Shown here: positions 765 through 1,948 of the stretch, one piece after another
Numbering within the stretch: the stretch's first letter is position 1
How the letters are laid out: the number at the start of each line of letters is the position of its first letter
NCBI RefSeq assembly: GCF_003334335.1
Contig: NZ_QOWQ01000096.1
Source of the DNA: Escherichia coli
GTDB lineage: Bacteria > Pseudomonadota > Gammaproteobacteria > Enterobacterales > Enterobacteriaceae
Reading direction: 5' to 3' (one strand)
DNA: 1,948 bases
Notes under the pieces: generated by a model
What the model saw: only the letters and a program-made list of their open reading frames with translations
Database searches by the model: none
What the model was told of the DNA's origin: nothing
Translations under genes and position numbers: made by a program

Positions 765-770
765 TCGATC

Positions 771-780
771 CCCCTCTCCT
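771..780 (-). promoter_or_regulatory. Shine-Dalgarno sequence for J (AGGAGAGGGG on the minus strand)
   Basis: Minus-strand sequence reads AGGAGAGGGG-GATCGA-GTG; the purine-rich block sits 6 nt upstream of the GTG start at 764..762. Confidence 0.6.
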
Positions 781-805
781 GTCTGATGTCTGAATTTGTT
801 TATGC

Positions 806-838
806 CCAAAAAACAACAGGCACCCCGGAGGGTGCCTG
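806..838 (-). terminator. Rho-independent terminator on the minus strand, about 42 nt upstream of the J start
   Basis: Perfect 9-bp GC-rich inverted repeat CAGGCACCC (817..825) / GGGTGCCTG (830..838) with a 4-nt loop (826..829). On the minus strand the hairpin is followed immediately by UUGUUUUUUGGGC (plus 816..806). On the plus strand it is followed by CAUCAUGACGG with no U-tract, so it is unidirectional. Confidence 0.7.
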
Positions 839-876
839 CATCATGACGGAATAAAAATTCTGAATATCTTCACATT

Positions 877-904
877 TTCACAAACTGACTGTGGCGCGTA
901 TAAT
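877..904 (+). promoter_or_regulatory. Sigma70-type promoter on the plus strand: -35 TTCACA (877..882), 16-bp spacer, -10 TATAAT (899..904), with an A/T-rich UP-like tract upstream (~848..872)
   Basis: The -10 hexamer is a perfect TATAAT and the -35 matches TTGACA at 5 of 6 positions with 16-bp spacing. The upstream tract AATAAAAATTCTGAATATCTT is AT-rich. Predicted transcription start is about 911..913. Confidence 0.6.
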
Positions 905-910
905 TTCGCT

Positions 911-1008
911 GCGTTAGTGTTTTTTCTGCCCGAGTAACAAAAACAACTCCTTAACATTAATCTTCATTTGTCTGTCCCGCAGCTCCGCGATCACTGCGGG
1001 ATTTTTTT
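911..1008 (+). ncRNA. Candidate small RNA (~98 nt) in the I-J spacer, transcribed antisense to the tail operon
   Basis: Predicted start 7 to 9 nt after the TATAAT and 3' end at the U-tract of the plus-strand terminator. No ATG occurs anywhere in the transcript and the only GTG-initiated frame is 6 codons. An A/U-rich single-stranded stretch (CUUCAUUUGUCUG, 961..973) lies directly 5' of the terminator hairpin. Both ends are predicted, not mapped. Confidence 0.45.
975..1008 (+). terminator. Rho-independent terminator on the plus strand
   Basis: 8-bp stem TCCCGCAG (975..982) / CTGCGGGA (994..1001) with 6 G-C pairs and an 11-nt loop, followed by TTTTTTT (1002..1008) and then ATGTTTTAT. On the minus strand the same hairpin is preceded, not followed, by the run, so it is oriented to stop plus-strand transcription. 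It abuts the I stop codon (1014..1016). Confidence 0.75.
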
Positions 1009-1013
1009 ATGTT

Positions 1014-1694
1014 TTATCCCTGTCGACCAATAACCACGACCTTTCCGCCCCCGCCTTCATCACGGGTACTGATGTCCTGGGATATACGGCGGGAGCCAAC
1101 CAGCATTTCCCCGTAAGGCACCGGCATCGGGTTACCCTGGGCAATCATGTTGTCCAGTGAGGAAAAGTACGTGTTCTGTTTACCGTTATCCGTTGCCCGG
1201 TAATCCGGTGTTTTTGCCTTCGGGGCCAGCATCTGGGCCACACCGCCCAGAATCATGCTGGCTCCAAGTGAAAACAGCATCGTGGTGGCAGAAAAACCAC
1301 CGGCTGCCAGGGCTGAACCCCATAACGCCATCGTGGCTCCGGCAGTGAAGAAAGAGCCCACGATGGCCGCCGCCCCCAGCACAATCTGCAGTCCGCCCTT
1401 TCCGGCACCGGCCAGTCGCGGCACAATATGGATGACCGTTCCCTCACCCAGTGGTTCGTGAAGGCGGGCATACACCGCCTCCGGTGCCGTGTCATCACCG
1501 GCAATACGTATCTGGTACCAGCCTTCGTTCATCTGACGGCGAAAGCCCGGCACCTGCAGCGACAGGGCACGGATGGCTTCCGCTGCCGTGTTCACATACA
1601 GGCTGATGCGGCGACCAAATCGTTGTAAATCCCCGTGAAGGCAGATGCGGACCAGTGGCGGTGACGCCAGACAGAATGCGTTCGTCGTTGCCAT
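1014..1694 (-). CDS. I: Tail assembly protein I (lambda gpI family): N-terminal ubiquitin-like domain plus Gly/Ala-rich hydrophobic C-terminal region
   Basis: Complete 226-aa ORF from ATG at 1694..1692 to TAA at 1016..1014. The translation MATTNAFCLASPPLVRICLHGDLQRFGRRISLYVNTAAEAIRALSLQVPGFRRQ...GKQNTYFSSLDNMIAQGN...GEMLVGSRRISQDISTRDEGGGGKVVVIGRQG closely resembles lambda gpI as I recall it. A GAGAGAGG purine run (1706..1713) lies 11 nt upstream of the start. Position immediately downstream of K and upstream of J matches the conserved K-I-J order. Confidence 0.92.
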   Translation of the reverse strand: MATTNAFCLASPPLVRICLHGDLQRFGRRISLYVNTAAEAIRALSLQVPGFRRQMNEGWYQIRIAGDDTAPEAVYARLHEPLGEGTVIHIVPRLAGAGKGGLQIVLGAAAIVGSFFTAGATMALWGSALAAGGFSATTMLFSLGASMILGGVAQMLAPKAKTPDYRATDNGKQNTYFSSLDNMIAQGNPMPVPYGEMLVGSRRISQDISTRDEGGGGKVVVIGRQG

Positions 1695-1948
1695 TTTTCG
1701 GAATACCTCTCTCGTTTGCTCAGTTGTTCAGGAATATGGTGCAGCAGCTCGCCATCACCACAGTAAATGGCGGCATGATTCGGCACCGATGAACCAAAAC
1801 AGCACAGCAGCACATCGCCCGGTTGTGCTGATGACAACGGCACCTGATACAGCCCTGTGGCCTCCAGATTATCCAGGTACAGGTTCTGGCCGTTGCGCCA
1901 CCAGTCATCCTCGCGATGAAAATCCGGCATATCAATTCCCGCCAGATG
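1592..1948 (-). CDS. K: Tail assembly protein K (lambda gpK family), C-terminal NlpC/P60 (C40 peptidase-like) region; N-terminus lies beyond the window end
   Basis: The frame is open from the window edge (...HLAGID-MPDFHREDDWWRNGQNLYLDNLEATGLYQVPLSSAQPGDVLLCCFGSSVPNHAAIYCGDGELLHHIPEQLSKRERY...) to TGA at 1594..1592. The Met at 1930 given in the ORF track is internal, not the true start. The LLCCFG Cys and downstream His residues are typical of NlpC/P60 tail-assembly proteins. The ORF overlaps the I start by 103 nt in a different frame. Confidence 0.9.
   Translation of the reverse strand, partial: HLAGIDMPDFHREDDWWRNGQNLYLDNLEATGLYQVPLSSAQPGDVLLCCFGSSVPNHAAIYCGDGELLHHIPEQLSKRERYSEKWQRRTHSVWRHRHWSASAFTGIYNDLVAASACM

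What the first reader, a model, noticed from the sequence alone, without database searches (positions are those of the whole stretch)
1592..1694. K reading frame runs 103 nt into I in a different frame (basic C-terminal extension of K)
The K frame passes the I start as AAA-TGG (Lys-Trp) and continues for 33 more codons (QRRTHSVWRHRHWSASAFTGIYNDLVAASACM) before TGA at 1594..1592. If close relatives instead end K at a short ATGA-type overlap with I, a TGA to TGG change here would have created an Arg/His-rich tail. Otherwise this is a conserved long overlap that constrains both genes. I cannot tell which from this window; my recollection of lambda gene lengths is not reliable enough to decide.
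Basis: partly seen in the sequence, partly recalled or inferred. Interest (0 to 1): 0.4.

Follow-up and report, generated by a model that had tools for sequence, protein, structure and literature searches.

The report
Conserved lambda K–I gene overlap
The 103 bases read in two frames are the ordinary overlap between tail-assembly genes K and I, annotated in phage lambda itself; both readings are kept by selection, so the feature is real but not new.

Summary
On the minus strand the K frame passes the I start codon (ATG 1694..1692) as AAA-TGG and stops at TGA 1594..1592, giving a 103-nt overlap.

It is not a recent stop-to-Trp change or a sequencing error.
- Reference lambda has the same 103-nt overlap (K 14276..14875, I 14773..15444), as do all 84 other lambda-like loci examined.
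- The TGG is a Trp conserved across the K family.
- Both frames look constrained. Only 27 of 103 overlap sites vary, against 239 of 438 in the flanks, and neither frame keeps a free wobble position.

The "Arg/His-rich" part is the conserved end of K's NlpC/P60 domain, laid over a 13-residue leader of I. The true K extension is a confidently predicted C-terminal helix (motif FTGIxNDL), laid over strands β1–β2 of I's ubiquitin-like domain.

The helix defines a monophyletic K subfamily. In its distant members the helix lies upstream of I (overlap 4 nt or less). In intermediate members the overlap is 55–64 nt. In the lambda group, I's start moved 13 codons upstream.

Verdict: already known, low interest. 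The evolutionary gradient is a modest side result.

The parts
1592..1948 (-). 3' part of gene K (tail tip assembly protein K, JAB + NlpC/P60 peptidase). The gene runs off the window at 1948; stop TGA is at 1594..1592.
   Evidence: Searches give the ORF. The fragment is 98% identical to K of phage PhiR12_1 and 93% to lambda K. Pfam finds Prok-JAB at 2-103 and NLPC_P60 at 109-222 on the full-length PhiR12_1 orthologue.
1014..1694 (-). Gene I (tail tip assembly protein I), 226 aa, ATG 1694..1692, stop TAA 1016..1014.
   Evidence: One search gives the ORF. It matches lambda gpI in the PDB (8iyk) at E = 4e-96 over residues 1-224. Pfam Lambda_tail_I PF06805 covers residues 16-97.
1592..1694 (-). Dual-coding K/I overlap, 103 nt, with I in the -1 frame relative to K.
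   Evidence: The length is the same in lambda and in 85 of 85 lambda-like loci, counting the window. Variable sites are 27 of 103, against 239 of 438 in the flanks.
1656..1694 (-). Overlap part A. In K it encodes the last helix and strand of the NlpC/P60 domain (WQRRTHSVWRHRH). In I it encodes codons 1-13, a weakly structured leader (MATTNAFCLASPP).
   Evidence: The Pfam NLPC_P60 match ends at K residue 222. The AF2 K model has helix 211-216 and strand 217-223. I residues 1-8 have pLDDT below 50. Seven of the 12 variants here are synonymous in K and 2 are synonymous in I.
1592..1655 (-). Overlap part B. In K it encodes the C-terminal extension (the helix, K residues 228-244, is at about 1598..1648). 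In I it encodes codons 14-33, which form strands β1 and β2 of the ubiquitin-like domain and include the near-invariant G21, L23 and G27.
   Evidence: The AF2 K model has helix 228-244 with pLDDT 88-98. The AF2 I model has strands 14-19 and 29-33 with pLDDT about 80-85. Of the 20 variants here, 9 are synonymous in I and 5 in K.
1706..1713 (-). Shine-Dalgarno-like GAGAGAGG for I, lying inside K codons Arg-Glu-Arg, 11 nt upstream of the ATG.
   Evidence: Predicted duplex with the 16S 3' end is -7.3 kcal/mol. The same element is present in lambda and PhiR49_1, and GAGG is present in the Providencia phage. Candidate starts at codon 14 and codon 34 have no comparable element (-1.5 and -2.2 kcal/mol).
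1691..1693 (-). TGG, the conserved Trp codon of K (residue 213 in PhiR12_1 numbering).
   Evidence: It aligns with the family consensus Trp (YxGxW) in 97 K homologues and in the 14-phage alignment.
1593..1595 (-). GTG (I codon 34), forming GTGA with the K stop. Some annotators use it as the I start; it is rejected here.
   Evidence: The PhiR12_1 and PhiR49_1 records start I here. Starting here would delete β1 and β2 and Pfam model positions 4 to about 21. It has no Shine-Dalgarno element.

Best explanation
This is the genuine, conserved dual-coding junction of tail-assembly genes K and I of lambda-like phages, the same one annotated in lambda.

Ribosomes translating K read through to TGA 1594..1592. 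This produces the last elements of the NlpC/P60 peptidase domain and then a roughly 20-residue C-terminal helix. Other ribosomes start independently at ATG 1694..1692, using a Shine-Dalgarno-like GAGAGAGG built from K codons. They read the same DNA in the -1 frame, producing a 13-residue leader and then strands β1-β2 of I's ubiquitin-like domain.

Constraint is split between the frames. In the first 39 nt the K domain dominates and the I leader is free to vary. In the last 64 nt both the I β-hairpin and the K helix motif FTGIxNDL are held.

Shown here: the anatomy, its conservation, the substitution pattern and the domain boundaries. Inferred: that both products are made from these exact ends, and that the 103-nt overlap arose from an older 55-64-nt overlap when I's start moved 13 codons upstream.
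For: Arrangement in relatives:
- The lambda annotation gives K 14276..14875 and I 14773..15444, a 103-nt overlap.
- All 85 lambda-like loci, counting the window, have 103 nt. A Providencia phage has 97 nt.

Substitution pattern among 60 haplotypes:
- Variable sites are 27 of 103 in the overlap against 239 of 438 in the flanks (p = 2e-7).
- K wobble sites vary at 62 of 80 positions outside the overlap and 11 of 35 inside it.
- I wobble sites vary at 53 of 66 positions outside and 9 of 34 inside.
- Changes that alter both proteins are 9 of 32 observed, against 149 of 291 possible.

Domain content of the overlap:
- Pfam NLPC_P60 ends at K residue 222, and Lambda_tail_I begins at I residue 16.
- tblastn hits to I from distant phages begin at query residues 14-19, inside the overlap.
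- G21, L23 and G27 are at least 90% conserved in the I family.
- AF2 predicts the K tail as helix 228-244 at pLDDT 88-98, and I strands at 14-19 and 29-33.

Start codon of I:
- In the window there is no ATG, GTG or TTG in the I frame between codon 1 and codon 34 (sequence).
- Only ATG-1 has a Shine-Dalgarno-like element.

Independent selection on the K tail:
- The tail is kept where it does not overlap I (Mannheimia phage, L100, L101, L103, L107, L109).
- In those cases the -1 frame over the tail carries 2-4 stop codons per 20 codons, whereas it is open in every overlapping case.
Against: - Nothing here shows either protein end directly. In lambda virions only gpI residues 134/135-223 are resolved, and gpK is not detected (PMC10721106, PMC12617516).
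- The ATG arises automatically from K's Lys(AAA)-Trp(TGG) codons, so its conservation alone does not prove it is used.
- The 11-nt spacing between the Shine-Dalgarno element and the ATG is long.
- The 60 haplotypes are related and mostly very close, so the Fisher tests overstate independence.
- In lambda itself a second ATG at codon 14 could give a 64-nt overlap instead.
Confidence: 0.9

Rival explanations
1. A recent stop-codon loss (TGA to TGG at 1693..1691) let K read into I and created a new, probably functionless, basic tail.
For: Outside the lambda group K ends soon after the RH[KR] motif, and K and I overlap by only 4-26 nt.
Against: - The TGG is the family's consensus Trp.
- The basic segment lies inside the Pfam NLPC_P60 match, which ends at residue 222.
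- The same reading exists in lambda and 84 other loci.
- The tail is a confidently predicted helix and is shared by a monophyletic set of 22 K representatives down to about 36% identity.
Confidence: 0.01
2. I really starts at GTG 1595..1593, giving a 4-nt GTGA overlap as annotated in PhiR12_1 and PhiR49_1. The 103 nt would then code for K only.
For: Two phage records annotate I this way. GTGA junctions are common in phage operons. No protein data exist for I's N-terminus.
Against: - I residues 14-33 align with the N-termini of distant I proteins and carry G21, L23 and G27.
- The Pfam domain starts at residue 16.
- AF2 places β1 and β2 in this stretch.
- I-synonymous changes are the largest class in the last 60 nt.
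- The GTG has no Shine-Dalgarno element.
- The Providencia phage has no start codon at that position.
Confidence: 0.05
3. The overlap serves a programmed -1 ribosomal frameshift that makes a K-I fusion protein, as lambda G and T make gpGT.
For: I is in the -1 frame relative to K. A few database entries are K-I fusions carrying both PF00877 and PF06805. Iyer et al. 2006 mention rare fusions of I with K or J (PMC1779556).
Against: - There is no X_XXY_YYZ heptamer in the K frame anywhere in the overlap.
- The four true K-to-I fusion entries (P0007, P0019, P0084, P0094) are singletons and join K to I at four different positions, as expected from indels or assembly errors.
- I has its own start codon and Shine-Dalgarno element.
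Confidence: 0.02
4. A sequencing or assembly error in the window produced an artificial frame relationship.
For: None found.
Against: One IMG/VR contig encodes an identical I protein (L003), and five complete E. coli genomes carry the adjacent I-J spacer at 100% identity. Eighty-five loci from independent sources share the frames and the overlap length.
Confidence: 0.005

Closest known systems
Phage lambda genes K and I (NC_001416: K 14276..14875, I 14773..15444)
   Same: The gene pair, the frame relation (-1) and the 103-nt overlap length are identical. The K tail is 27 of 33 residues identical and the I N-terminus about 22 of 33. The Shine-Dalgarno-like GAGAGAGG upstream of I is also the same.
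   Different: Lambda also has an ATG at I codon 14; the window has CTG there. The rest of I is only 68% identical. The I-J spacer is 249 nt in the window and 60 nt in lambda.
K/I junctions of T1-like, HK578-like, Burkholderia, Vibrio, Klebsiella and Rhizobium siphophages
   Same: The L-K-I-J gene order and the protein families are the same.
   Different: K ends 2-11 residues after the RH[KR] motif and has no helix. The overlap is only 4-26 nt by annotation (up to about 36 nt by my reading of Salmonella phage 36), or the genes are separated by an inserted gene.
Lambda Rz/Rz1 and phiX174-type overlapping genes (from general knowledge)
   Same: One DNA stretch is translated in two frames into two functional proteins, and variation at otherwise silent sites is suppressed.
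   Different: Here only the gene ends overlap (33 codons), so this is not an embedded gene. The conserved part of one protein mostly lies over the less constrained part of the other.
Lambda G/GT programmed -1 frameshift (from general knowledge)
   Same: It lies in the same tail operon, and the downstream frame is -1.
   Different: There is no slippery heptamer, the downstream gene initiates independently, and there is no evidence for a fusion product.

Membership tests
Lambda tail tip assembly protein K (JAB + NlpC/P60 peptidase) | NlpC/P60 (PF00877) domain following a prokaryotic JAB (PF14464) domain | tested here: met
   On the full-length orthologue PhiR12_1 K, which is 98% identical to the window fragment, Prok-JAB covers 2-103 (E = 7e-16) and NLPC_P60 covers 109-222 (E = 2e-12). 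Foldseek matches JAMM deubiquitinases and the NlpC/P60 protein MepS. The window itself holds only the last 118 codons.
Lambda tail tip assembly protein K (JAB + NlpC/P60 peptidase) | Position in the tail operon between L and I | tested here: met
   The window shows K-I-J. The 95.8% identical PhiR12_1 and other relatives show L-K-I-J or K-I-J.
Lambda tail assembly protein I (PF06805, ubiquitin-like N-domain plus C-terminal plug domain) | PF06805 match and homology to lambda gpI along the whole length | tested here: met
   PF06805 covers residues 16-97 (E = 3e-15). The match to lambda gpI (8iyk chain I) has E = 4e-96 over residues 1-224.
Lambda tail assembly protein I (PF06805, ubiquitin-like N-domain plus C-terminal plug domain) | Intact β1-β2 hairpin of the β-grasp fold at the N-terminus | tested here: met
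   AF2 predicts strands at 14-19 and 29-33 with pLDDT about 80-85. G21, L23 and G27 are at least 90% conserved in 28 homologues. The β-grasp assignment is from Iyer et al. 2006 (PMC1779556).
Functional dual-coding (overlapping-gene) region | Both frames open and conserved across relatives | tested here: met
   All 85 lambda-like loci, counting the window, have the 103-nt overlap, and six more distant loci have overlaps of 55-97 nt in the same register.
Functional dual-coding (overlapping-gene) region | Loss of the free wobble class and depletion of changes that alter both proteins | tested here: met
   (numbers in the report). Caveat: the haplotypes are related to each other.
Functional dual-coding (overlapping-gene) region | Both products shown to be translated from these exact ends | not testable with these tools
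   No proteomic data were available. Virion structures resolve only gpI 134/135-223, and gpK is absent from virions.
Programmed -1 ribosomal frameshift site | Slippery heptamer X_XXY_YYZ in the upstream frame | tested here: not met
   None is present in the K frame across the overlap. The only homopolymer run is AAAAA at the I start, and it is in the wrong register.

The most novel reading that the evidence does not exclude
K's C-terminal helix was born by overprinting on the 5' end of I, that is, K reading into I's β1-β2 coding DNA in the +1 frame. It then became functional, and it was later separated from I in several lineages by local duplication or gene insertion.

A related possibility is that the two peptides encoded by the same DNA are physical partners. 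The K helix might dock I's ubiquitin-like domain for processing by the JAB peptidase.

Evidence compatible with this:
- All 22 tail-bearing K representatives form one clade.
- Overlapping members, always in the same register, are scattered across that clade and include basal branches (P0149, P0201).
- Members with separate coding form one subclade plus isolated cases.
- The motifs GI.NDL (K) and GDL[KQ]RFG (I) are mutually translatable.

Not shown: DNA similarity between separately encoded K tails and I 5' ends is only 31%, against 26% in controls, and it is not significant in the Mannheimia phage. The tree is neighbour-joining with midpoint rooting and has no support values.
Probability: 0.3. 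Interest if true: 0.4.

Novelty: already known. Interest (0 to 1): 0.15.

Why it matters
For the genome scan, this finding can be closed. It is the textbook arrangement of lambda K and I, not a mutation, an artefact or a new element.

It has some practical value for annotation. Several deposited phage records truncate I to avoid the long overlap: at the GTGA junction in PhiR12_1 and PhiR49_1, and further downstream in Providencia PSTCR8lys and Salmonella phage 36. These calls remove the first strands of I's ubiquitin-like domain.

It also gives a clean small example of how two genes share DNA. The conserved end of one domain lies over a disposable leader of the other protein, and a short helix lies over a β-hairpin. 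The overlap length steps through relatives from 4 nt or less, to 55-64 nt, to 97-103 nt.

If the overprinting origin of the K helix were confirmed, it would be a tidy case of de novo birth of a structured protein segment. It would still be of specialist interest only.

Tried and rejected
1. Duplication-relic test. I asked whether separately encoded K-tail DNA is a diverged copy of I's 5' DNA.
- In the Mannheimia phage, 140 of 1000 shuffles reached the observed local alignment score.
- In six loci aligned in the lambda register, identity was 31% against 26% at control offsets.
- The apparent similarity of the alternative-frame translations (for example YGDSQ*LG against YGDLQRFG) follows from conservation of the K motif, so it is not independent evidence.
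- Result: inconclusive, and the idea is not claimed.

2. Programmed frameshift. There is no slippery site, and the K-I fusion entries have different junctions. Rejected.

3. Solved structures covering the disputed ends. The lambda gpI entries carry the full deposited sequence, but only residues 134/135-223 are modelled. No K structure has been solved.

4. Rfam scan of the window. Nothing reached a gathering score.

5. The I-J spacer was compared with the phage-encoded anti-sRNA AgvB. AgvB lies at the PR' moron site, not here.

6. A literature search for a prior discussion of the K/I overlap found nothing specific.

7. The first viral-contig scan returned only relatives with I at least 96% identical. 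Diversity had to come from the phage collection, the 50%-identity representative library and contig look-ups.

Full report
**What is in the window**

Read on the minus strand, the window holds three features.
- The last 118 codons of a K-type gene, which runs off the window at 1948 and stops at TGA 1594..1592.
- A complete I-type gene, 1694..1014, 226 aa.
- A 249-nt spacer followed by the start of a J-type gene (GTG at 764).

The window is 95.8% identical to Escherichia phage PhiR12_1 and 90-94% identical to many Stx-converting phages. The K frame passes the I start as AAA-TGG and continues for 33 codons.

**Is it peculiar to this sequence?**

No.
- Reference lambda has K at 14276..14875 and I at 14773..15444, the same 103 nt.
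- I located both genes by tblastn in every locus fetched. All 85 lambda-like loci have a 103-nt overlap. These are the window, lambda, PhiR12_1, PhiR49_1, an Stx2a phage and 80 IMG/VR contigs. A Providencia phage, with I 47% identical, has 97 nt.
- The TGG suspected of being a former stop codon encodes a Trp that is a consensus residue of the K family (YxGxW).

**Are both frames coding?**

I compared 60 distinct haplotypes from 81 loci.

| Class of site | Outside the overlap | Inside the overlap | p |
|---|---|---|---|
| All sites variable | 239 of 438 | 27 of 103 | 2e-7 |
| K third positions variable | 62 of 80 | 11 of 35 | 5e-6 |
| I third positions variable | 53 of 66 | 9 of 34 | 2e-7 |

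- Of the 32 observed single-base variants, 12 are silent in K only, 11 are silent in I only, and 9 change both proteins.
- Among all possible single-base changes, 149 of 291 would change both proteins.
- The haplotypes are related, so the p-values are generous. The pattern is still the one expected for dual coding.

**Anatomy**

On the full-length PhiR12_1 orthologue, which is 98% identical to the window fragment, Pfam places Prok-JAB at 2-103 and NLPC_P60 at 109-222 of 245 residues. The overlap begins at K residue 213.
- The "Arg/His-rich" WQRRTHSVWR is therefore the end of the peptidase domain.
- Every K homologue has this segment, including those without a long overlap.

An AlphaFold2 model built from 97 homologues has mean pLDDT 97.6. 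It shows helix 211-216 and strand 217-223, and then a C-terminal helix 228-244 with pLDDT 88-98. That helix is the real extension, and it is not basic.

On the I side:
- PF06805 starts at residue 16.
- tblastn hits from Ralstonia, Burkholderia, Vibrio, Klebsiella and other phages begin at residues 14-19.
- G21, L23 and G27 are at least 90% conserved in the family.
- An AlphaFold2 model gives strands 14-19 and 29-33, with pLDDT about 80-85, and a disordered residue 1-8.
- Iyer et al. 2006 identified this N-domain as a ubiquitin-like β-grasp that is functionally linked to K's JAB peptidase (PMC1779556).

So the first 39 nt pair the end of the K domain with a disposable I leader. There, 7 of 12 variants are silent in K. 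The last 64 nt pair the K helix with I's β1-β2. There, 9 of 20 variants are silent in I and 5 are silent in K, and the K motif FTGIxNDL and the I motif GDLQRFG hardly vary.

**Where does I start?**

Some records start I at the GTG that forms GTGA with the K stop (PhiR12_1 and PhiR49_1) or even further downstream (Providencia). That would remove β1-β2.
- In the window the I frame has no ATG, GTG or TTG between codon 1 and codon 34 (sequence).
- Only ATG-1 has a Shine-Dalgarno-like element. This is GAGAGAGG at 1713..1706, with a predicted duplex of -7.3 kcal/mol and an 11-nt spacing, and it is built from K's Arg-Glu-Arg codons.
- The same element is present in lambda, PhiR49_1 and, as GAGG, in the Providencia phage.

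I conclude that ATG-1 is the start. This remains an inference, for three reasons.
- The ATG is an automatic by-product of K's Lys-Trp codons.
- No protein data cover either disputed end.
- Virion structures resolve only gpI 134/135-223 and do not contain gpK (PMC10721106, PMC12617516).

**Wider comparison**

Outside the lambda group, K ends 2-11 residues after the RH[KR] motif. There K and I overlap by 4 nt (Burkholderia E264.1, NBD2), 10 (HK578), 11 (Rhizobium L338C), 16 (Vibrio Vc1) or 26 (Klebsiella). In Mannheimia 587AP2 and HK106 a moron with an annotated terminator separates them, and Pseudomonas BR141a and Moraxella Mcat12 also carry inserted genes between K and I.

A search of 1.84 billion representative proteins found 2727 K relatives. 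Among roughly 110 full-length proteins in the best 150, 21 carry the tail, with consensus WRH..W....[FI]..[IL].[ND]D[LF]. A neighbour-joining tree was built on the domain columns only. In it, these 21 and the query form one clade of 22 with no tail-less member inside.

Contexts recovered for twelve of them, plus the phage loci, give a stepped series.

| Overlap | Members |
|---|---|
| 4 nt or less, tail encoded upstream of I (or no adjacent I) | P0153, P0165, P0172, P0158, P0176, P0263, P0258, Mannheimia |
| 55-64 nt, I starting directly at β1 (MATVRLYGDL...) | P0134, P0139, P0132, P0201, P0149 |
| 97-103 nt | Lambda group |

- In two of the intermediate loci (L099, L105), I's Shine-Dalgarno element is a GGAGG made by K's Trp-Arg-His codons, with a predicted duplex of -9.3 kcal/mol. 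The other three have weaker purine-rich elements (-5.5 to -6.4).
- In the lambda group that element is gone. The codon-14 start is ATG in lambda, TTG in Providencia and CTG in the window, and a new ATG with its own Shine-Dalgarno element lies 13 codons upstream.
- The 103-nt overlap is therefore best read as an older overlap of about 60 nt, extended when the start codon migrated.

Where the tail is encoded separately it keeps its motif, while the -1 frame over it carries 2-4 stops per 20 codons. In every overlapping case the -1 frame is open. This indicates that the K helix is selected for its own sake.

**Direction of evolution**

Overlapping members, all in one register, occur on several branches of the tail-bearing clade, including basal ones. 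This hints that the overlap is ancestral and that the helix arose by overprinting I's 5' end. I could not demonstrate it.
- DNA of separately encoded tails is not significantly similar to I 5' DNA.
- The tree has no support values.

**Rivals**

- A programmed -1 frameshift is not supported. There is no slippery heptamer, and the four K-to-I fusion entries join at four different places.
- A sequencing error is excluded by the many independent sequences that agree.

**Verdict**

This is a real, conserved, dual-coding junction that has been part of the lambda annotation from the start. It is already known and of low interest. The stepped evolutionary series and the annotation errors it exposes are minor by-products.

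Noticed in passing
L001 (lambda NC_001416) about position 872, lambda coordinate about 14271; not in the window: The lambda reference (NC_001416 and J02459) lacks one base (GGAGGC-TATTTCC) relative to PhiR49_1, PhiR12_1 and an Stx2a phage. It also lacks it relative to other lambda-derived records (KT232076, LC730321 at 48,503 bp, DE3, imm434, imm21, HK629/HK630), which match a 111-nt query over 112 nt. As a result lambda K is annotated as 199 aa from an internal Met, while relatives have 245-247 aa with a complete JAB domain including Glu17. The missing N-terminal part is open in another frame from an ATG just after gene L. This is probably an error or strain-specific lesion in the 1982 reference.
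   Followed up: partly
window 765-1013 (I-J spacer): The spacer is 249 nt, against 60 nt in lambda, and looks like a small inserted module.
- On the plus strand (antisense to the tail genes) there is a promoter-like site at 877-904 (TTCACA-16-TATAAT, 11 of 12 matches).
- Also on the plus strand there is a terminator-like hairpin at 984-1000 followed by T7. Together these would give an RNA of about 95 nt.
- On the minus strand there is a strong terminator at 839-816, preceded by a 38-aa ORF (957..841).
- The 239-nt stretch 775-1013 that was searched matches 1766 of 5426 complete E. coli genomes (712 over at least 80% of its length) and carries no RefSeq annotation in the hits listed.
- No Rfam family reaches threshold, and it is not AgvB.
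- The fold of 910-1008(+) has a z-score of only -1.8.
   Followed up: partly
L002 (PhiR12_1), L084 (PhiR49_1), L085 (Providencia PSTCR8lys), L096 (Salmonella phage 36), L099: Deposited or automatic annotations often start I too far downstream, apparently to avoid the long overlap. Some use the GTGA junction (193 aa) and others start 70 or more codons in (142-154 aa). These calls cut off the first strands of the ubiquitin-like domain.
   Followed up: yes
proteins P0007, P0019, P0084, P0094, P0097 and others: Public databases hold singleton proteins carrying both the NlpC/P60 and Lambda_tail_I Pfam domains. In P0007, P0019, P0084 and P0094 the K-to-I junction lies inside the overlap at four different positions. 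P0097 is a different chimera, an I fragment followed by K sequence. These are most likely indels, pseudogenes or assembly errors in prophages rather than a biological fusion.
   Followed up: yes
window 1650-1652 (K Ser226 / I Val15): The window, PhiR12_1 and one IMG/VR contig carry TCC/GTC here (K Ser, I Val). Fifty-seven of the 60 haplotypes compared carry CAC/GCA (K His, I Ala). This two-base difference changes both proteins at once.
   Followed up: no
window 1620-1622 (I Arg25, codon CGA): I uses CGA, a rare Arg codon in E. coli, before the conserved Phe-Gly. This is forced by K's Asp codon GAT in the NDL motif. In lineages where the K tail and I do not overlap, this I position is Lys, Glu, Gln or Ser rather than Arg. 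It is a small visible cost of the overlap.
   Followed up: partly
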